A DNA stretch of 64,000 nt from contig OZ024740.1 of assembly GCA_964016885.1 (NCBI GenBank), forward strand, positions 204,972,001-205,036,000. Reading direction: 5' to 3'. Each line of letters opens with the position of its first letter. Positions within the stretch are counted from its first letter, which is position 1. Origin of the DNA: Eledone cirrhosa. Its lineage: Eukaryota. Position numbers and translations under genes: made by a program. Of the stretch, positions 9,023 through 60,149 are shown in pieces. The notes below the pieces were generated by a model. It searched no databases. It had not been told where the DNA came from and saw nothing but the letters and a program-made list of their open reading frames with translations.

Positions 9023-9225
9023 CCCTTTAGCATTTACTGTACTCTATATTTACTATTGTATTTTTACGGTAATTATCTCACATAATATTGAAGCTACGAG
9101 ATTTTGATGTTATTTATTTTGAGAACAATGCCTTAACGTTGGTATGAGTGGCCGGTTACGACTGGTTTGAACAGAAAGAGGTGAGAGAAATCTGGCCAGA
9201 TATGGCCGGTTTAATTGCTAAAGGG
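9023..9225. mobile_element. piggyBac-type MITE family A (~200 bp)
   Basis: TTAA|CCCTTTAGCATTT ... TTGCTAAAGGG|TTAA, with homologous copies elsewhere in the window. Confidence 0.9.
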
Positions 9226-14161: not shown

Positions 14162-14569
14162 CCCTTTAGCATTTATATTACTCCATATTTATTATTGTAT
14201 TTTTACAGTAAAAGATTTATCTCACATAATATTGAATCTCCGAGATTTTGATATTATTTATTTTGAGAACGGTGGATTGGCAGTATCGGTAGAGGGTCGG
14301 ACGCCATGCTTTGACATATAGAGTTACGGCCCTTGCCATTCTGAGTTCAAATCCCGCCAAAGTTAACTTTGCCTTTCATCCTTACGGGGTCGATAAAATA
14401 AAGTACCAGTAATGCACTGGTATTTGCTGGCCTTGTGCCAAATGTAGAAACAATTATTTATTTTGAGAACAATACCTTAACATCAGTATGAACAACCAGT
14501 TACGGCCGGTTTGAACAGAAAGAGGTGAGAGAGTTCTGGTCAGATACGGCTGGTTTAAATGATAAAGTG
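14162..14569. mobile_element. piggyBac MITE family A interrupted by a SINE
   Basis: TTAA|CCCTTTAGCATTT...ATGATAAAGTG|TTAA; body matches the 9023 copy. Confidence 0.85.
14271..14453 (+). mobile_element. tRNA-derived SINE family 1, full length with a 17-bp TSD
   Basis: A-box TGGCAGTATCGG and B-box GAGTTCAAATCC. TSD ttatttattttgagaac at 14254-14270 and 14454-14470. Confidence 0.9.
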
Positions 14570-18180: not shown

Positions 18181-18363
18181 CCCTTTAAACTGGCTGCATA
18201 TGGCCAGAATTCTCTCACCTCTTTCTGTTCAAACCAGCAGTAACCTGCTTATACTTATGTTAAGATATTGTTCTCGAAATAAATAATATCAAAATCTCGT
18301 AGATTCAATATAATCTGAGATAATTATGTGAAATAAAGAGTTTACCATGAAAATATAGAGTAA
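18181..18363. mobile_element. piggyBac MITE family A, truncated, in reverse orientation
   Basis: TTAA|CCCTTT; body is the reverse complement of the 9023 copy. Confidence 0.75.
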
Positions 18364-33747: not shown

Positions 33748-33928
33748 CCCATTAGCATTTAAACCGGCTGTATCTGGCCAGAATTCTCTCACCCCTTTCT
33801 GTTCAAATTGGCTGCTCATACCAATGTTATGGTATTGTTCTCAAATTCCCATAGATTCAATATTCTGTGCGATAAAGCCTTTAATGCAAAAATACAATAG
33901 TAAATAGGGTAATGTAAATGCTAAAGGG
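33748..33928. mobile_element. piggyBac MITE family A
   Basis: TTAA|CCCATTAGCATTT...AAATGCTAAAGGG|TTAA. Confidence 0.88.
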
Positions 33929-37334: not shown

Positions 37335-37527
37335 CCCGTTAGCATTTAAACTGGGTAGAATTCGCCCAGAATTCCCTCACCACTTTCTGTTAAAGCCGGT
37401 TGTAACCAGCCGGTCAGTGATATTAAGGTATTGTTCTCAAAATTACTAACATCAAAACCTTGTAGATTCGATAGTGTGTGAGCAAAAATACAATAGTATA
37501 TATAGATTAATGTAAATGGTAAATGGG
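37335..37527. mobile_element. piggyBac MITE family A
   Basis: TTAA|CCCGTTAGCATTT...AAATGGTAAATGGG|TTAA. Confidence 0.8.
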
Positions 37528-39125: not shown

Positions 39126-41720
39126 CCCTTTCGTTACCAAACCGGCCAAAAAAATTTTGGGATCATGTGACCAAGACGCCCGCCCGTACTCACACATTCA
39201 TATTTAAATGAGGATATCAGAGCAAATCTCGTTAGTACATTCGTGAAAACACATGATTATACTTTGTAAACAATTGAGCTACAGTTTTGGACAATGATCG
39301 ACGTGTTATTTTAATTCTGTGAATTTTGGGAGATTTTTTTCCAAATTTGTTCCTGTTGTGTTTTGAAAATTTGTAATTCTGATAAAAAATGGATACCAAT
39401 TTCATTCTGTCAAGCAGCGAGTCAGAATTCGAAGGATTTTCCACTGAAGACCTTGAAAAATTTAACTCTATAACTGAAAAAAAAAAAAAAAAGCACGTGG
39501 TATTTGATAATGAATCCGATGTTTCATTTTCCGAAAGTGAAAACAGTGAATCCGAGAGCTCCGATGACAGCGATAAAGAAAATGAATTGGCACCTGAATG
39601 GAGCAAAAATTTAAAAACTTTCTTTCAGTGATTTTTGTGAAGAAACTGGACCAAGTCACAGTCTATCCCAGGAGAGCAAAGCTTTAGACTATTTCCTTTT
39701 ACTTTTTCCTATGAGCTTGTTTGAAATCATTACGGCGGAAAGAAACCGTTACGCTGAAAGTAAACAAAGCGAAAAAAAGGATAGTTTGTGGTTTCCCACA
39801 AACTTAAATGAAATTAGAGCTTATTTTGCCATACATATTATTATGGGCATTAGAAAGCTACCCAGAATTACAAATTACTGGAGTAGCGATGAACCCTTTG
39901 TAGACGAATATGTCTCAAGTATAATGACGAGGACACGGTTTTTAAAATTGACGCAATATTTACATGTAAGAGACACGAGCAGTACACCAGTACGTGAAGA
40001 ACCAAACTATGATCCCTTATTTAAAATAAGACCCCTCATTGATTGTGTTCAAAACACATATAACACAGCTTACAAACCAGGGAGATATTTATCTATCGAT
40101 GAAGGAATGGTGGGCTATAAAGGCCGAGTGCGTTTTCGACAATATATGCCAGGAAAGCCCACAAAATGGGGGATCAAAGTTTGGAAGATTTGCGAATCGA
40201 ATACTGGGTACTGCTCTGGATTTGAATTTTTTACTGGCAAAAGAGACAATTATGTAAGTCAGCATGGCCTAGGGTATGATGTGGTCTGGAATTTATCACT
40301 TCCATACCATAACCAGGGCCGTATATTATTTTTTGACCGGTTTTTCAGTTCGGTCAAACTTGCGGTGAATTTAGATACTGTGGCAACACATACATGTGCT
40401 ACAGTGATCACTAGTATAAAAGGACTGCCGTTGGGTATAAAAAAAGCACAATTAAAAAAAAAAGTGAAATAATTCAACGGCAGAAAGGAAATTTGCTAGC
40501 GACCACATACAGAGATAAGAGGCAGATCAATTTTCTGTCTACCTGTGCACGGCCACATGTGGATGAAAATGGCACCCCATTTGTGAATCTCAATTATAAC
40601 AGGTACATGGGTGGTGTAGATCGGATGAATCAGATGATGTCTTATTATTCAGTTGGCAGACCGGGGAGTAAATGGTGGCGATACCTGGTTTGGTATATAG
40701 TAAATATGAGTATTACTAATGCGTTTTACTATATACCAAATCGGGACCGGCTCGAAAGCGATGCGACCATCTGCAGTTCTGAGCAGATATAGCAACACAA
40801 TTAAGAGCTGATTATTCCTAAAAAAAAATAACTGTAGGGAGAAAAAACAAAGCCTGCCAGAGAGATATCCCTCTGAATTCAACCGATCTCCATAAATTAG
40901 AAAAAAAAGAAAAAAATATCGAGGGTCGCAAAAAGCAGTGTTGTGAATGACTTCATCAAAAAAGTAAAGCTCCTAGTGGAAGGTCTGTTGAAACAACTTT
41001 CCAATGTGCATTCTGCAAGGTTGCATTATGTAGAGCAGGGTGCTTTACAAGTTTTCATGACAGGAATATTGTTTGATTTGTATATATGTGTGAATCTATT
41101 TTTTTAATATTTTCAAATTTACTTCGTTTTTCTTTTTCTTTTTCTTTATGTGTAATTTTAATTTACCTTTAAGGTGAGTGACGAGTTTTGATTAATTTCT
41201 TTTTTAAATCATTATTGTATATTTCTGCGTATCTATGTATGTGGGAGAGCTTATTTAATCTAGTTGATGGTGTGTGTGTATTTTGTTTTCTAGTTTTCTT
41301 CACAGACAAATTCCAGTCTTTCGTTTTATTTATACCTTTATGGTACACCCGCCTTTTGTGTGTTTAAATTCACCTGATAAATCCAGTAATGTGCACAACT
41401 CTTCTATAGTAAAATTTTGTTGTATACCCAATTGAATATTAGCTAATAACCCATTTTCTATAGCGATGTTTGAACAAAATTTTAATAATTTCATATTTTG
41501 TTGAATTTACCTGTAATTAGAGTCACTTTGAGACAAAAATTATGGAATAGAATTGGTTGAGAACCTTTCGTTAAATTTTCTTCCCAAAAACACATTAATA
41601 TGTTGATAAATAAAAAAGTTAGAGTTGTTTAATGAAACCAGACTAAATTTATGATTATGTTAGAAACTAATTGAAACACATAAGGGGTGTATTTTTGTTA
41701 GAAATATGGTAATGAAAGGG
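39126..41720 (+). mobile_element. Full-length piggyBac element with a frameshifted PGBD4-like transposase (39389-41076)
   Basis: TTAA|CCCTTTCGTTACCA ... TGGTAATGAAAGGG|TTAA. Motifs SIDEGM, FDRFFSS, MGGVDRM and Cys-rich C-terminus ending HDRNIV. At least 3 frame breaks. Confidence 0.93.
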
Positions 41721-42326: not shown

Positions 42327-42400
42327 CTGGCAGCATCTTTAGCATATGTTTTAATGATATCTCCTGTTGTGGGGGGACCAATTCGCTTAAAATTTACACC
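42327..42400 (-). CDS. DDX21: DDX21-like exon (GVNFKRIGPPTTGDIIKTYAKDAAR)
   Basis: AG acceptor and GTAAG donor; 74 nt, phase 0-2. Confidence 0.92.
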
Positions 42401-42770
42401 CTACAAAATAATGATATTTAATAAAAACAAAACAGAATAGCTATGCCAAATACATTCAATATATATCTGTGGATACACTATTTTTGTTTTACTTGTCTCA
42501 GTCATTGAAATGTGGCCATCCAGGGGACAGTCTTTCAGAAAGTTGATCATAAAACCTGTATATACCAGTCTCGTACATATTTTAGCAAACTACTATGTTA
42601 TCACCATTGGTTTGGCTGAATGGTTAAAAAATGTCTTTCACAATGATGAGGTCTTTAGCGTAATCCCAGTGTGTGACATCTTGAGTAATTGTCATTAACT
42701 AGCAAAGCCTTGTTTCAATCCAAGTGTTGAGAGGGAAATCAGGTAAGCAGAGATTGTACCTGAAATTTAA

Positions 42771-45337
42771 CCCTTTAGCATTCACATTGAATTGTCAAAT
42801 GTCATGTTCATCTATTCGCATTATTTTCACTTAATTATACTCAAGAGGGTTATCAATTTTATTTGTTTCTAATTACTTTAATTTTCTATGTGCAGACTTG
42901 AAATTTTGTCAGTAGACGTTTAAAGAACTATAATTTACAATTATATAATTTTACCTGATTTTTTTTTGTTAAATTTGACTTTTATGGGCAGGTAAAATTA
43001 ATTAACAGGTGTAAAAGTAATAACTTTATGGATAAACACAAAAATTTAAACTTTATCTGCCTTACCTGTTAGATTTGTTGCAAAAAAATCCAATAATGAT
43101 CTAGATGCTGATTTCCATCAATTCTAGCAGTTTTCCGAACAGGTGAATTAATTAAAAATGCAGGTGTAATCAGTACAATGTTTTAGTCTTTCTCTACATT
43201 CCAGGCAAATATTTTCATTGAAAAAAATGTATAAAACCTTTTCACCAGTCAAAATAATATTGGCAATGTACTCTTACACAATGTACGGTGTAAAATTACG
43301 TAACAGAATGTTCCCAATATATAAGTTCATTAACAGGTGTGATGCAGGTGTGTCACAGGTGAATGCAGGTGTTTTTGTATATGTGTGCTAATATATTTTT
43401 AAAATAGTGTTTTCAATATTGTTAGACAATATTTCGATCGTGATACTGCCCAAAGCACCCTTTACATAAGGGCACTTTGCAAAAGGAACACATAAATAGG
43501 GTTTGGATTGCGTAACCTTTAACAGTTTTTCTCTTTTGCAAAGAGCACAATCGGCAAACCTTCCTCCTACCATCAATTCTCTCCACTTTATGAAAATCAA
43601 TATTTTCTTTGTGGACCACTGCTAATTTTGATTTTTTCCCAGCTTTGTGTTTGCGAGAAGTATATCCCCCACGTAGCTGGGATGCAATGTCCACGCGAAA
43701 TTTCATGTGGCAGTAGTCCTTTGGTGGTGGCGGATCCTTGTGGCTTTTAGTAAATACAATATAAGAATTTACAATGGTTAAATTCACTAAAAACCACAAG
43801 ATGTATCTCCACCATTTCTTTCCAGGGCGTCCAACTGGGTAATACGCGCAATATTGGTCGGATTTGTCAACCCCACCCATATATTTATTATAGGAGAGGT
43901 TAACTAAAGGTCTACCCTCAGCCCCAACACCTGGTTGTTGGTTAGAACTCAGGAACAAAATTTGCCGTTTGTCTTTGAACACTGTGGCTAACATGTTCTC
44001 TTTTTGCATTTGGAGAATGTCTCCTCTGTTTTTTAGTTTTGCAACTTTTATTTCTTGGGGTAGTCCTTTCCGATTGCTCATTATTGTGCCGCAGGTGTAC
44101 GTATTTACAAGGGCAAGATCCTCTGCTAAAAGCACCGAAGAAAAAAAACGGTCATAATAAATGTGTCTGTGTTGAAAGTGGAAGGGTTGAGTCAGCGACC
44201 ACACAACATCGTAACCCAACCCGTGCTTTCTCTCTCCGTTAAGTTTTTTTCCTGTGTAAACATCAAAGTTTACACAGTATCCCGTGTCCGATTCACACAG
44301 TTCCCACACTTTGATGCCCCATTTGGTGGGTTTAGCTGGCATATACTGTCTGAAATGAACCCTACCCTTATATCCAATCATAGCTTCATCAACACTAAGA
44401 TTTTTTCCAGGTAAATACATACTTTTAAATTTTTCCGTCAACATTTCAATTAATGGTCGTACTTTGTACAGTGGGTCGTAATTCGATTCATTTCTACCAG
44501 GGGCATTTGTAGTATCAACCAGATGCAAATACTGGTTTAATTTTATAAATCTCGTTTTGGCCATAATACTAGATATATAAGGGTCACCAAACCTTATATC
44601 AGTACTCCAATAATTCCACAGTCGTGGAAATTGTTTAATACCAAACATAATGTTTATGGTAAAAAACGCTTTCATTTCGGCAGAATCTGTCGGACGCCAT
44701 AACAGATCGGGTTTTCCTCGATTAGAAATCTGTTGTTGTGCATAGCGATTTGTCTCCTCTGCCACAACTTCGAAGAAAGTTTGTGGTAGAAATAAAAAAA
44801 AATAATCCAGAGCTTTAGCATCGGGTGGTAATGTGTGTTGTGGTCCAGAATTTTCATTAAAATCCGAAACATGTATCGGTGTTGTTTTTTTCAACCACGT
44901 TGGTGTTTTTTCAATGGTGTCAGATATCTCTTCGCTTTCACTTTCAAAGTGACTATCATCATCATCAGATATATCTGAAATAAATATATCTGATTCATTT
45001 GAAGATAAATCACTGATATTATCTTCTGTTTCTTTGTTATCTTGAATGTCGTAGGATGTGAAACCTTCAAAATCGTTGTCGCTGCTTTCGGAAGCCATGT
45101 TACAATTTCAAAGTTAAAAACACGTGTTATCACAAGGTCTTTAACTATACTAAGAGTTAATTTTCGCGCGTAAGGGCTTTATCTCGCTGTAATCTCGAAT
45201 TGACGAGATTTTGATGATGTCAATGTTTATTTTTAGAAGGATATCTACGAGTGGTCTGAAATGTCGGTTTTTGTCGGTTTGAATAAATGAAAGGGGACAT
45301 AATTTTGTCGGTTTTTGTCGCTTTGAACGCTAAAGGG
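42771..45337 (-). mobile_element. Apparently intact autonomous piggyBac transposon (2567 bp)
   Basis: TTAA TSDs at 42767-42770 and 45338-45341. TIRs CCCTTTAGCATTCACA / CCCTTTAGCGTTCAAA. Uninterrupted transposase ORF. Confidence 0.95.
43422..45098 (-). CDS. piggyBac transposase (PGBD4-like, DDE_Tnp_1_7), 558 aa
   Basis: Acidic N-terminus. Catalytic Asp in LSVDEAM, YYDRFFSS and MGGVDKSDQ. KPTKWGIKVW motif. C-terminal Cys-rich domain CRLC...CSFC...LC.GCF..YH. Confidence 0.95.
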   Translation of the reverse strand: MASESSDNDFEGFTSYDIQDNKETEDNISDLSSNESDIFISDISDDDDSHFESESEEISDTIEKTPTWLKKTTPIHVSDFNENSGPQHTLPPDAKALDYFFLFLPQTFFEVVAEETNRYAQQQISNRGKPDLLWRPTDSAEMKAFFTINIMFGIKQFPRLWNYWSTDIRFGDPYISSIMAKTRFIKLNQYLHLVDTTNAPGRNESNYDPLYKVRPLIEMLTEKFKSMYLPGKNLSVDEAMIGYKGRVHFRQYMPAKPTKWGIKVWELCESDTGYCVNFDVYTGKKLNGERKHGLGYDVVWSLTQPFHFQHRHIYYDRFFSSVLLAEDLALVNTYTCGTIMSNRKGLPQEIKVAKLKNRGDILQMQKENMLATVFKDKRQILFLSSNQQPGVGAEGRPLVNLSYNKYMGGVDKSDQYCAYYPVGRPGKKWWRYILWFLVNLTIVNSYIVFTKSHKDPPPPKDYCHMKFRVDIASQLRGGYTSRKHKAGKKSKLAVVHKENIDFHKVERIDGRRKVCRLCSLQKRKTVKGYAIQTLFMCSFCKVPLCKGCFGQYHDRNIV

Positions 45338-45935
45338 TTAAAGGCCCAGCTTTATTACACACTGTGATATACTAATAACAGGAATTACGTTAAGGGTACA
45401 CAAGCCTGTAAAACACTTACACATTAATCCACAAGTTGGACATCAAGTTGATTTAACAATTGAATGCTTATCATAGAAACCGAGGAAGCATCCATCTTCA
45501 CTAATAATGCTTCTGGACACATCAATTTACACTGGTAAATACTTGTCCTAGGCCTGAGACTAGTGAGAAAAAGTTATCTAAGATTAGGAAACCAAGCTTG
45601 AATGCTTGCACTCATGGACCAGTGGGTGGTGTTACACTGGACAAAGTCAACTGTGTGTAAGTGTACATGAACACATTATTTAATGCCTATTTTCTCTGCT
45701 AGCAAGAGTTCAACGACCTGTCACATACAAAGCCAATACCTAATTGATGCTACTGACTCCTCAGACAAGCTGGGATGTCCATGATTGGAAGACCTTAGTA
45801 CCAGCCACTTTACAGACTGTACTGGGTGCGTTTATTGTGTCACCAGCACTAGAGTGGCTCTCATGCCCATGACACAACCGAAGAGTCCTTCCTCAAACAA
45901 ACCACTTTACAGGGTGTACTGAATACATTTCTTGT

Positions 45936-46036: not shown

Positions 46037-46261
46037 AGCTCTTCGCTCCACTTGTATAAGGTCACTTTCTTGGCGTGGTGAATAAAATAATACACTTATC
46101 CCTGAACGACCAGCACGCCCCGTTCTTCCAGAGCGATGTATATAGGCATCTGCGTCTCTTGGTGGACTACACTGCACAACTAAATCAACTTCAGGTATAT
46201 CTAAACCTCTGGCAGCAACATCAGTTGTTAAAAGAACTTTGTACTTACTCTCACGGAAACT
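46037..46261 (-). CDS. DDX21: DDX21-like exon with motifs V and VI ([13 protein letters not shown]; [12 protein letters not shown])
   Basis: AG acceptor and GTGAGT donor; 225 nt, phase 0-0. Confidence 0.97.
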
Positions 46262-53425: not shown

Positions 53426-54622
53426 CCATTTAGCATTCAAATTAATTTTCAAACGTCATGCCTATCTGTTCGCATTATTTTCAGCAGTGGATTGGCAGTA
53501 TCGGTAGAGGGTTGGGCGCCATGCTTTGACACATAGAGTTATGGCCCTTGCCATTCTGAGTTCAAATCCCGCCGAGGTTAACTTTGCCTTTCATCATTAC
53601 GGGGTCGATAAAATAAAGTACCAGTAATGCACTGGGTAATTGCTGGCCTTTTGCCAAAAGTAGAAACAATTATTTTGAGTTAATCATACTCAAGAGGGTT
53701 ATCAATTTTATTTGCTTGTAATTTTCTATGCGCAGGTTTTTTGAAATTTTGTCAGTAGATGTTTAAATATCAATAATTTACAATTATATAATTTTACCTG
53801 ATTTTTTTTTGGGTCAAATTTGACTTTTATGGGCAGGTGAAATTAATTAATAGGGGCATTTGAAGTATCAACCAGGTACAAATACTGGTTTAATTTTAAA
53901 TACCTTGTTTTCGGCATAATACTTGATATCAGTGTTCCAGTAATTCCACAGTCTTGGAAATTGTTTTATACCGAACATAATATTTACGGTAAAAAAGGCT
54001 TGCATTTCCGCAGCATCTGTCGGTTTCCAAACAGATTCGGTTTTCCTCGATTTGATATCTGTTGTTGTGCATATTAATTAATCTCTTCTGCCACAACTTC
54101 GAAGAAACTTTGTGGTAAAAAGAAATAATCCAGTGCTTTAGCATCGGGAGCTAATGTGTTTTGTGGAACAGTATTTTGAATAAAATTGGGAACATATATT
54201 GGTGTGGTATTTTTCAACCACATTGCTGTAACATTTTCAATAGCGCTCTAGAGTCCTCCATTTTCACTTTCAAAACAACAATCATCATCGGACGAAATTT
54301 CAGAAATATAAACATCAGATTCATTTGAAAATAAATCACTAATATTATTGTTTGTTTCTTGTTTATTTTGAATGTCGCCATGTGTAAAACCTTCAAAGTC
54401 GATATCGCTATTTTCATAGACCATGTTGATACAAAAAAAAAATTTGTTGCACTTTCAAGTGTTAATTTTCGCGGTAAGGGCCTAATTTCGCAGCAGTATC
54501 GAATTGACGAGATTTTGATAATGGTTTGTTTATTTTTTAGAATGATTTTTTAGTGTGGGTGTTTTCGGGTGGTTTGAACAAATGAAGAGGAAATAATTTC
54601 GGGCAGTTTGAACACTAAAGAG
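53426..54622 (-). mobile_element. Non-autonomous internal-deletion derivative of the 42771 piggyBac family, with a family 1 SINE inserted at ~53485-53671
   Basis: TTAA-flanked termini. Retains the 5' ~200 transposase codons (decayed) joined to the 3' subterminal region. Confidence 0.9.
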
Positions 54623-56344: not shown

Positions 56345-56548
56345 CCTTTTAGCATTTACATTACTCTTGTATATATTTACTATTGTATTTTTATGGTAAA
56401 GGCTTTATCTCACATAATATCGAATCTATGAGATTTTGATATTTATTTGGGAACAATACCTTATCAGTATGAGTGGGCAGTTACAGCCAGTTTGAACAGA
56501 AACAAGAGAGAATTCTGGCTGGATATGGCCGGTTCAAATGCTAAAGGG
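56345..56548. mobile_element. piggyBac MITE family A
   Basis: Body matches the 9023 copy; termini slightly decayed. Confidence 0.8.
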
Positions 56549-59114: not shown

Positions 59115-60149
59115 CCCTTTAGCATTCGCATTAATTTTCAAACGTCATGCTTATCTGTTCGAATTATTTTGAGTTAATCATACTCAAGAGGGTTATTAAT
59201 TTTATTTGTTTGTAATTTTCTATGTGCAGGCTTGAAATTTTGTCAGTAGATGTTTAAATATCAATAATTTACAATTATATAATTTTACCTGATTTTTTTT
59301 GGTCAAATTTGATTTTTATGAGCAGGTGAAATTAATTAATAGGGCATTTGAAGTATCAACCAGATGCAAATACTGGATTAATTTTAAATACCTTGTTTTC
59401 GGCATAATACTTGATATATAAGGATCACTAAACCTTATATCAGTGTTCCAGTAATTCCAGTCTTGGAAATTGTTTTATACCGAACATAATATTTACGGTA
59501 AAAAAGTTTGCATTTCCGCAGCATTTGTCGGTCGCCAAACAGATCGGGTTTTCCTCTATTTGAAATCTGTTGTTGGGCATATTAATTAATCTCTTCTGCC
59601 ACAACTTCGAAGAAAGTTTGTGGTAAAAACAAAAAGAAATAATACAGTGCTTTATCATCGGGAGCTAATGTGTGTTGTGGATCAGTATTTTGAATAAAAT
59701 CTGGAATATATATTAGTGTGGTATTTTTCAACCCAGTTGCTGTAATATTTTCAATGGCGTCCGGGAGATCTTCGTTTTCACTTTCAAAACAATCATCGTC
59801 GGACGAAATTTCAGAAATATAAACATCAGATTCATTTGAAGATAAATCACTAATATTATCATTTGTTTCTTGTTTATTCTGAATGTCGTCGTGTGTAAAA
59901 CCTTCAAATTCGGTATCGCTACTTTCATAAGCCATGTTGATACAAAAAAAATTTTTTTTGTACTTTCAAAGTTAAAAAAACACTTGTTTTAAATTGTTTC
60001 ACTATATTAAGTGTTAATTTTCACGGTAAGGGCCTAATCTCGCAGTAATCTCGAAGTGACGAGATTTTGATGATGGTTTGTTTATTTTTAGAATGATTTT
60101 TTAGTGTGGGTGTTATCGGTCGATTTTGGGCGGTTTGAACACTAAAGGG
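59115..60149 (-). mobile_element. Second copy of the non-autonomous piggyBac deletion derivative (~1035 bp)
   Basis: TTAA|CCCTTTAGCATTCGCA ... TTTGAACACTAAAGGG|TTAA. MAYESSDTEFEGF ORF remnant. Same junction as the 53426 copy. Confidence 0.92.

What the first reader, a model, noticed from the sequence alone, without database searches (positions are those of the whole stretch)
42771..45337. Potentially active native piggyBac transposon in a DDX21 intron
Seen: perfect TTAA TSDs, 16-bp TIRs with 2 mismatches, subterminal tgtcggtttt repeats at the 5' end, and an uninterrupted 558-aa ORF with all three catalytic Asp and a complete Cys-rich C-terminal domain. CpGs are retained despite lying in a CpG-depleted gene body. 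Established: these are the components of autonomous piggyBac elements. Inference: a recent and possibly still mobile element, or one kept by selection. It would be a candidate genome-engineering tool native to this lineage. It is in the same sense as the host gene, so it is co-transcribed in the pre-mRNA and could supply a premature poly(A) site.
Basis: partly seen in the sequence, partly recalled or inferred. Interest (0 to 1): 0.72.

Follow-up and report, generated by a model that had tools for sequence, protein, structure and literature searches.

The report
Young octopus piggyBac favouring gene introns
This is a complete piggyBac jumping gene inside an intron of an octopus RNA-helicase gene, with a base-for-base identical copy on another chromosome-scale contig, so it likely moved very recently and may still be active, and its family sits mostly in DNA that is likely the body of everyday housekeeping genes.

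Summary
Confirmed. The 2,567-bp element has TTAA on both sides, 14-16-bp TIRs, 5' direct repeats, and an intact 558-aa transposase (D237/D316/D411, HC6H zinc finger). It lies sense-oriented in an intron of an octopod DDX21 gene. It is neither a lone relic nor domesticated:
- One copy elsewhere is 100% identical with unrelated flanks.
- 6 of 50 core-bearing loci examined keep the full ORF.
- Changes shared between copies are under purifying selection (pN/pS 0.13).
- A young 1,469-bp deletion family with matching ends was likely moved in trans.
- About 41,000 MITE-type ends share the 12-bp tip.
Current activity is inferred, not shown. The premature poly(A)/exon-trap idea has no support: there is no strong in-frame acceptor, and one run holds the correctly spliced host junction.
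Unasked extra: family copies cluster (16 neighbour pairs under 50 kb against 0.24 expected). They sit in CpG-depleted DNA (37/48 against 11/40 random), several beside housekeeping exons. This suggests gene-body targeting. The scan had already noted intron-biased piggyBac MITEs on other DNA of this genome.
Verdict: new member of a known kind, and a reasonable native vector candidate.

The parts
42767..42770 (.). TTAA target-site duplication (3' side of element)
42771..42786 (-). 3' (right-end) terminal inverted repeat, 16 bp; the terminal 12 bp plus TTAA occur 40,953 times exactly in the genome
42858..42863 (-). AATAAA 92 bp from the element's 3' end; likely the transposase mRNA poly(A) signal (inferred)
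42953..43370 (-). 3' UTR cluster of 10 ACCTG motifs (7 CACCTG); 0.66 expected from shuffles, maximum 4; candidate right-end transposase or host-factor sites (inferred)
43422..45098 (-). piggyBac transposase ORF, 558 aa: acidic disordered N-terminus with 6 CK2-type S/T-x-x-D/E motifs, core, C-terminal cysteine-rich domain
43440..43592 (-). HC6H-pattern cysteine-rich domain (H503 to H553)
43866..44390 (-). Catalytic triad codons D411 (43866-43868), D316 (44151-44153), D237 (44388-44390)
44703..44716 (-). Three ancestral-state bases within 14 bp on an otherwise youngest-lineage background, shared only with identical copy L001 among the youngest copies; likely a gene-conversion tract acquired before the last jump
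45262..45327 (-). 5' subterminal direct repeats, 2 x 22 bp (45262-45283, 45306-45327)
45322..45337 (-). 5' (left-end) terminal inverted repeat
45338..45341 (.). TTAA target-site duplication (5' side)
46037..46261 (-). Host DDX21/DDX50-type helicase exon upstream of the intron (75 aa, phase 0)
42327..42400 (-). Host exon downstream; the element ends 370 bp before its acceptor
59115..60149 (-). Older internally deleted relative (80-86% DNA identity) with TIRs and TTAA, in the same stretch of the window
53426..54622 (-). Older internally deleted relative (75-85% identity), decayed TIRs
39386..41076 (+). Frameshifted transposase of a distinct piggyBac family (about 54% aa identity) in the next DDX21 intron, antisense to the host

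Best explanation
This is a full-length autonomous piggyBac transposon, one of the two youngest copies of a long-resident octopod family, and it likely jumped by TTAA-specific cut-and-paste within the last few hundred thousand years and likely still encodes a working transposase. Mechanism (inferred from piggyBac/piggyBat biochemistry): the 558-aa DDD transposase binds the TIRs and subterminal repeats through its core and HC6H domain. It would excise the element precisely and insert it at a new TTAA, and repair from the sister chromatid would restore the donor. The same enzyme lineage likely moved the 1,469-bp deletion family in trans, and ancestors of it likely spread the roughly 220-bp MITE. 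Shown: the family lands disproportionately in CpG-depleted DNA and in clusters. Inferred: these sites are methylated bodies of constitutively expressed genes. In DDX21 the element is likely a tolerated passenger that is spliced out with the intron.
For: Youth and mobility. L001 (C2) is identical over 2,567 bp and its flanks have no BLAST similarity to the window's. L003, L004 and L005 differ by 4-7 substitutions. A diagnostic 33-mer finds exactly 4 copies of the youngest clade. 29 of 30 loci show TTAA at both ends. A full 558-aa ORF with all triad and zinc ligands is present in 6 of 50 core-bearing loci examined. ORF changes shared by 3 or more copies are 38 synonymous and 19 non-synonymous (pN/pS 0.13, P 6e-14 against neutral). 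Private changes are 49 synonymous, 116 non-synonymous and 15 stops (pN/pS 0.61). This is the pattern of selection acting during transposition. Trans-mobilisation. 20 of 22 extra 5'-end loci are a 1.33-1.47-kb deletion family, mean pairwise difference 0.6%, with one pair showing no substitutions at different sites. 19 of these 20 match the window's last 40 bp exactly and 19 differ at only 2 of the first 85 bp. MITE homology to the 5' end scored above all 30 shuffles in 9 of 11 short elements aligned. Fold. Mean pLDDT is 81; the top Foldseek hits are piggyBat 9c0f (E 1e-30) and piggyBac 6x67. Targeting. Among 91 3' ends on C1-C4, 16 neighbour pairs lie under 50 kb apart against 0.24 expected. 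Flank CpG o/e is below 0.5 in 37 of 48 sites against 11 of 40 random stretches (P 4e-6). It is 33 of 43 after collapsing clusters, and 13 of 20 in a second set of older copies (P 0.01 against the same controls). TTAA is scarcer, not richer, in low-CpG DNA. Pfam hits above cut-off to host-gene domains (PRC2_HTH_1, CPSF_A, Cys_rich_FGFR, Cpn60_TCP1, TIP49) occur at 5 of 47 flanks against 0 of 40 controls. In octopus 5mC marks bodies of highly expressed genes (PMC9476566 passages). Splicing. An X4 contig joins 42399 to 46036, and another X4 contig runs from the intron into the element end.
Against: No excision or integration was shown. No empty allele was seen: contigs of X1 and X4 run through the junction without a break at TTAA. 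This suggests that individual is homozygous, so the insertion is not brand-new. The longest X4 pieces laid on the element carry 3-16 differences, so they come from other copies and do not show this copy is transcribed. The identical partner L001 lies in CpG-rich DNA (0.92-0.95), not a depleted region. The host-exon enrichment is borderline (P 0.04 one-sided, 0.06 two-sided), and only the 3 best ORFs per locus were scanned. Private CpG-to-TpG decay was not higher in copies with low-CpG flanks (1.7-fold against 3.4-fold), contrary to what methylation of these copies predicts. Insertion patterns are seen after selection. About 60% of mined piggyBacs showed no activity in human cells (PMC13461360 passage).
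Confidence: 0.82

Rival explanations
1. Recently extinct family: the element jumped within the last 0.1-0.3 My but is now silenced (piRNA, methylation or a truncated repressor) and no longer moves, although the ORF is intact.
For: No empty allele in the individual's reads. Only 4 copies in the youngest clade. Most of the 20 non-autonomous copies keep a roughly 235-aa N-terminal ORF ending before D237, which could act as a repressor (speculative).
Against: Zero differences between two dispersed copies. Graded series of ages from 92% to 100% identity, implying long continuous activity.
Confidence: 0.3
2. The identical pair is not a transposition but whole-element gene conversion or an assembly artefact (collapsed or polished repeat).
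For: A short conversion-like tract exists in this lineage. The sequencing technology of G000 is unknown to me.
Against: L001 and the window copy share three bases that the other youngest copies lack, and each has its own TTAA and unrelated flanks. Both window junctions are present in run X1 contigs. Even without L001, L003 and L004 differ by only 4-5 bases.
Confidence: 0.05
3. Domesticated or exon-trap gene in the manner of CSB-PGBD3: a DDX21-transposase fusion, or premature polyadenylation that regulates DDX21.
For: Sense orientation, intact ORF, AATAAA near the 3' end.
Against: Dozens of dispersed, young copies. An in-frame TGA four codons before the ATG. The best acceptor scores in the element are 3.0 or lower and out of frame, against 7.9-11.3 for real host acceptors (model trained on only 7 sites). 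Orientation relative to host exons is mixed, 4 sense and 4 antisense among 8 loci with a host-domain hit including weak ones (read). The spliced host junction is present.
Confidence: 0.03
4. The clustering and CpG-depleted context come from local hopping or from differential survival rather than from target choice by the transposase.
For: Local hopping of cut-and-paste elements is a known behaviour (recalled). Patterns are observed after selection, and intergenic copies might be deleted or disrupted faster.
Against: Neighbours checked belong to different subfamilies, not parent and offspring: L021 sits inside a non-autonomous copy; L005, L020 and L029 each lie 25-30 kb from a non-autonomous copy; the window copy's neighbours are 75-86% identical or a different family. 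Selection should remove, not enrich, insertions in housekeeping introns (inference). Copies under 2% diverged have had little time for differential loss.
Confidence: 0.25

Closest known systems
piggyBat of Myotis lucifugus (PDB 9c0f; PMC11707139, passages seen)
   Same: Best solved relative by sequence (E 5e-57) and fold; single ORF of similar size; DDD triad; disordered acidic N-terminus with CK2 motifs; short TIRs with asymmetric ends.
   Different: About 30% identity in the structural alignment; different TIR and subterminal motifs; host is an octopod; activity untested.
Trichoplusia ni piggyBac (PDB 6x67/6x68)
   Same: TTAA TSD, CCC-tipped TIR, DDD core (E 1.5e-39).
   Different: 24% identity. 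The CRD does not align by sequence, and the ligand pattern here is HC6H. T. ni piggyBac is enriched at TSSs through BET proteins in human T cells (PMC4786924 abstract), whereas this family's genomic copies lie in CpG-depleted regions and introns. T. ni piggyBac gave no fluorescence in cuttlefish embryos (bioRxiv 10.64898/2026.09.23.753964 passages).
Mollusc 'PGBD4-like' piggyBac transposases (Ostrea edulis, Argopecten, Pecten, Nucella) and unnamed ENA proteins
   Same: Nearest database relatives, 50-65% identity, same D-R-F-F variant of the second catalytic motif and same HC6H ligands.
   Different: None exceeds 65%, and the exact protein is not in the collection, so there is no sign of recent horizontal transfer.
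Recently active PiggyBac families of Octopus vulgaris (PMC13282606, Table 1 passage)
   Same: 6 families and 474 insertions at 2% divergence or less are reported, so young piggyBacs in octopods are already in print.
   Different: No sequence, ORF, MITE link or target preference appears in the passages seen; supplements not read; whether this family is among them is unknown.
CSB-PGBD3 exon trap with MER85 MITEs (PMC2268245, PMC3459987; search listing and abstract starts only)
   Same: 2.5-kb piggyBac in the intron of a helicase-family gene, with deletion-derived MITEs.
   Different: PGBD3 is fixed and old and is spliced in frame to the host; this element is young, multi-copy and has no usable acceptor.

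Membership tests
piggyBac-like element (PBLE; Bouallegue et al. 2017, PMC5381638 passages) | TTAA target-site duplication | tested here: met
   Window and 29 of 30 loci
piggyBac-like element (PBLE) | Short TIRs (12-19 bp) beginning CCY | tested here: met
   14 bp with 1 mismatch, 16 bp with 2, CCC tip
piggyBac-like element (PBLE) | Single ORF encoding a DDD transposase (PF13843) | tested here: met
   E 4.9e-83; D237/D316/D411 aligned to solved structures
piggyBac-like element (PBLE) | C-terminal cysteine-rich zinc finger | tested here: met
   PF13842; HC6H ligand pattern conserved in homologues; HC6H named as a main CRD type in PMC13461360
PBLE structural group with direct repeats (SG3) | TIR plus 12-42-bp direct repeats, no long subterminal inverted repeat | tested here: met
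   2 x 22-bp direct repeat at the 5' end; no convincing subterminal inverted repeat among the 25 longest listed
Active autonomous transposon | Multiple near-identical dispersed copies with purifying selection on shared changes | tested here: met
Active autonomous transposon | Presence/absence polymorphism or empty orthologous site | tested here: inconclusive
   No empty allele in X1/X4 contigs; RAD run X9 does not cover the unique flanks; organism B's contig covers the host exon but stops at 42471
Active autonomous transposon | Excision and integration activity | not testable with these tools
   Needs a cell or embryo assay
Domesticated PGBD gene | Single copy, fixed at an orthologous locus, ends lost or decayed | tested here: not met
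   At least 45 core-bearing copies; intact ends
PGBD3-type 3' exon trap | Strong splice acceptor upstream of and in frame with the transposase ORF | tested here: not met
   in-frame stop just upstream of the ATG

The most novel reading that the evidence does not exclude
A still-active cephalopod piggyBac whose transposase is steered into the methylated bodies of housekeeping genes rather than to promoters. It would be the living engine of the lineage that seeded about 20,000 or more intronic MITEs and inflated octopus housekeeping introns, and a native vector that delivers transgenes into constitutively expressed chromatin in a group where the moth piggyBac failed.
Probability: 0.3. Interest if true: 0.65.

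Novelty: new member of a known kind. Interest (0 to 1): 0.38.

Why it matters
Young intact piggyBacs are common across animals and already tabulated for O. vulgaris, so the element alone is ordinary. Three things raise it a little. (1) It links an intact transposase to a young non-autonomous family and, by homology, to a very abundant octopod MITE, so a major shaper of this genome can be assayed directly. (2) Its copies mark CpG-depleted, likely housekeeping gene bodies and cluster across subfamily ages, a target pattern unlike the TSS bias reported for T. ni piggyBac and testable by de novo mapping. (3) T. ni piggyBac failed in cuttlefish transgenesis, so a native enzyme is a sensible candidate. 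Minos and Sleeping Beauty already work there, which limits the need.

Tried and rejected
Expression: no RNA holder listed by the run search; this is no evidence either way. Contig depth was not used as an expression level. Empty-site search: RAD run X9 gave no cover of the unique flanks. Runs X5-X8 laid on the left flank gave only an orthologous exon contig for organism B ending at 42471, repeat fragments for C and D, and nothing for X8, so the orthologous site is undetermined. Horizontal transfer: the best of 893 hits is 63% identical over full length and 65% over 80%. The unnamed top hits have no organism label. Older subfamilies in the same genome favour long residence, so transfer was rejected as unsupported. 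Exon trap and premature poly(A): rejected. More TTAA in CpG-poor DNA as the cause of the bias: rejected (12 against 24 per 3 kb). Faster CpG decay in gene-body copies: looked for and not found. The search of earlier findings by sequence returned nothing. Literature: searches piggyBac+octopus, piggyBac+MITE+cephalopod and the targeting terms showed no description of this family or of gene-body targeting by a cephalopod piggyBac in the listed results. The library lacks most subscription papers and Repbase/Dfam were not searchable, so absence from print is not established. No supplements were read; those of PMC13282606 and PMC13461360 could contain this family. No complex prediction was run.

Full report
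1. Observation. Every listed feature is present at the stated coordinates. TTAA flanks the element at 42767-42770 and 45338-45341; the TIRs are 14 bp with one mismatch or 16 bp with two; two 22-bp direct repeats sit at the 5' end. The minus-strand ORF 45098-43422 gives 558 aa, matching PF13843 (E 4.9e-83) and PF13842. Alignment with piggyBat (9c0f) and T. ni piggyBac (6x67) places the triad at D237, D316 and D411. The C-terminal ligands read H-C6-H, one of two main CRD types named in PMC13461360 (passages). An AlphaFold2 model (pLDDT 81, 17-sequence alignment) finds these two transposases as its top structural hits. CpG o/e is 0.81 inside and 0.33 in the masked flanks.

2. Host. The flanking exons are 46037-46261 and 42327-42400 on the minus strand. 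The upstream exon is 95% identical to O. bimaculoides nucleolar RNA helicase 2, while bivalve and gastropod hits are 68-74%. The genome (G000, 3.0 Gb) is therefore an octopod's; I did not go further. The element ends 370 bp before the acceptor and starts 699 bp after the donor. In run X4 one contig joins the two exons across the whole 3,636-bp intron with GT-AG ends, and another runs from the exon through the intron into the element's tip. So a sample carrying the insertion makes the normal splice. Contigs cannot give levels.

3. Family census. A DNA search of G000 scored 40 of 1,639 candidates and listed 50 matches, about 35 of them near full length at 83-100% identity. Of the 30 loci fetched, L001 on C2 has no difference over 2,567 bp and unrelated flanks. 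L003, L004 and L005 have 4, 5 and 7 substitutions. L011-L013 share flanks (a segmental triplication) and were collapsed in later counts. Exact patterns give 46 5' ends, 45 core matches, 140 3' ends and 4 youngest-clade copies. Twenty further core-bearing loci had no intact ORF, so 6 of 50 examined are intact, all with triad and zinc ligands. With a borrowed calibration (0.09 JC = 25 My, passage of PMC13282606; also tried at half that rate), zero differences give a 95% upper age of 0.16-0.32 My.

4. Selection. Single-base codon differences against the window copy were counted over 29 other copies. Changes shared by three or more copies give pN/pS 0.13, and private changes give 0.61 plus 15 stops (Fisher P 1.5e-6). 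Purifying selection on internal branches with decay at the tips is the signature of an element selected for its own mobility. Private pN/pS is below 1 (P 0.005), likely because some tips include unsampled active intermediates. The window copy and L001 carry three ancestral bases within 14 bp (44703-44716) on a youngest-clade background. This is best read as a conversion tract from an older copy followed by a jump.

5. Dependants. Of 22 5'-end loci outside the first list, 20 are a 1.33-1.47-kb family lacking sense bases 924-2007. Pairwise difference is 0.6% on average, and one pair at different sites shows no substitutions. Their interior is about 7% diverged from the window copy but their ends are nearly identical, which fits trans-mobilisation by the current enzyme (inference). 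TTAA plus the terminal 12 bp occurs 40,953 times exactly, with 0 for the reversed control. Short elements between such ends are about 220 bp and about 14% divergent pairwise (n=9). In 9 of 11 short elements aligned, homology to the 5' end of the element scored above 30 shuffles, reaching up to 200 bp, and two share its last 18 bp exactly. The MITE therefore descends from an older member of this lineage. Whether today's enzyme can still move it is untested.

6. Where the family lands. The window holds three other piggyBac relatives and at least seven MITE-like pieces. Genome-wide, 16 neighbour pairs among 91 3' ends lie within 50 kb, against 0.24 expected (maximum 4 in 20,000 simulations). The neighbours checked are different subfamilies, which argues against simple local hopping. 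Flank CpG o/e has median 0.36 at 48 sites against 0.68 in 40 random 3-kb stretches (37/48 against 11/40 below 0.5, P 4e-6). It holds after collapsing clusters (33/43) and in a second set of 20 older copies (13/20, P 0.01, same controls). TTAA is half as frequent in low-CpG DNA. I scanned the three best-scoring ORFs per locus with Pfam (141 ORFs from 47 flanks; 119 from 40 controls). Host-gene domains above cut-off appeared at five flanks (EZH2-type, CPSF_A, GLG1-type, chaperonin and RuvB-like domains; the gene names are my reading) and at no control (P 0.04 one-sided, 0.06 two-sided). Retroelement and repeat domains (RVT, endonuclease, PHD, GIY-YIG, STPR, a low-complexity PduV match) were left out of this count on both sides. 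[quoted passage not shown] Against this reading: L001 lies in CpG-rich DNA, and private CpG decay was not faster in low-CpG contexts. In my sites the distances and sides are mixed (about 10 bp after a donor, 55 bp, 370 bp and about 1 kb before acceptors), so I confirm the intron association only partly and not the acceptor bias.

7. Effect on the host. There is no strong acceptor in the element (best score 3.0, out of frame, against 7.9-11.3 for seven real acceptors), an in-frame stop precedes the ATG, and poly(A) hexamer density equals that of host introns. A PGBD3-like fusion or special premature termination is unsupported. Contigs of X1 and X4 cross the junction without breaking at TTAA, so no empty allele is evident in that study's material.

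8. Comparison. Works like: T. ni piggyBac and piggyBat. Membership: all sequence-testable PBLE features are met; activity is untestable here. Nearest proteins are mollusc and unnamed marine sequences at 50-65%. Intact piggyBacs are frequent in molluscs (PMC10813416 passages), and six recently active families are tabulated for O. vulgaris. T. ni piggyBac prefers TSSs through BET proteins (abstract of PMC4786924) and gave no fluorescence in cuttlefish, while Minos and Sleeping Beauty worked (passages). PMC8857917 (passages) shows intronic transposons in active cnidarian genes are methylated, a possible brake on this copy. All papers were seen as passages, abstracts or listings only; no supplement was read.

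9. Verdict. Shown: structure, youth, family, selection pattern, dependants, clustering and CpG-poor context. Inferred: present-day activity (about 60%), trans-mobilisation, and active targeting of gene bodies (about 50%). New member of a known kind; interest 0.38.

Noticed in passing
window 39386-41076, 53426-54622, 59115-60149; MITEs at 9023-9225, 14162-14567, 18184-18363, 33748-33928, 37335-37526, 56345-56548, 57090, 61837: This region is a piggyBac hotspot: three older transposon relatives and many MITEs; 6 exact MITE-type ends outside the element against 0.84 expected.
   Followed up: yes
L031-L049, L051: 1,469-bp non-autonomous family; most copies keep a roughly 235-aa ORF (N-terminus plus DNA-binding/dimerisation part) that stops just before D237. 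It is a possible dominant-negative repressor in the manner of Drosophila KP elements (analogy recalled, untested).
   Followed up: partly
L021 (C1:430.50 Mb), L010, L023, L050: Nested insertions: an intact 558-aa copy sits in the TTAA of a non-autonomous copy's 3' UTR; others sit inside MITE ends or older relatives.
   Followed up: partly
proteins P0017, P0019, P0021, P0023, P0024, P0025, P0037: Seven cartilaginous fishes, including Callorhinchus, each have a 525-537-aa 'PGBD4-like' protein, 44-50% identical to this transposase and closely similar to each other, triad apparently kept. This may be a domesticated piggyBac orthogroup of chondrichthyans; no shark or Callorhinchus mention was found in PMC5381638.
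   Followed up: no
window 42953-43370: Ten ACCTG motifs, seven of them CACCTG (an E-box; Snail-type site by recall), in the 3' UTR, far above shuffles; function unknown, candidate right-end binding sites.
   Followed up: partly
L011-L013 (C25:603.9-627.3 kb) and L052: Three copies with identical flanks at 10.4-kb spacing, a tandem segmental array carrying the element, with an STPR-repeat ORF beside it.
   Followed up: no
G000:C3:290246071-290246126: Two 3' ends back to back sharing one TTAA.
   Followed up: no
run X5 (organism B): A related species holds abundant 90-99% similar pieces along the whole element, so the family predates that split or is shared.
   Followed up: partly
P0242: A 567-aa relative is labelled as from a Methylococcaceae MAG on a 3-kb contig, most likely host-animal contamination of a symbiont bin.
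   Followed up: no
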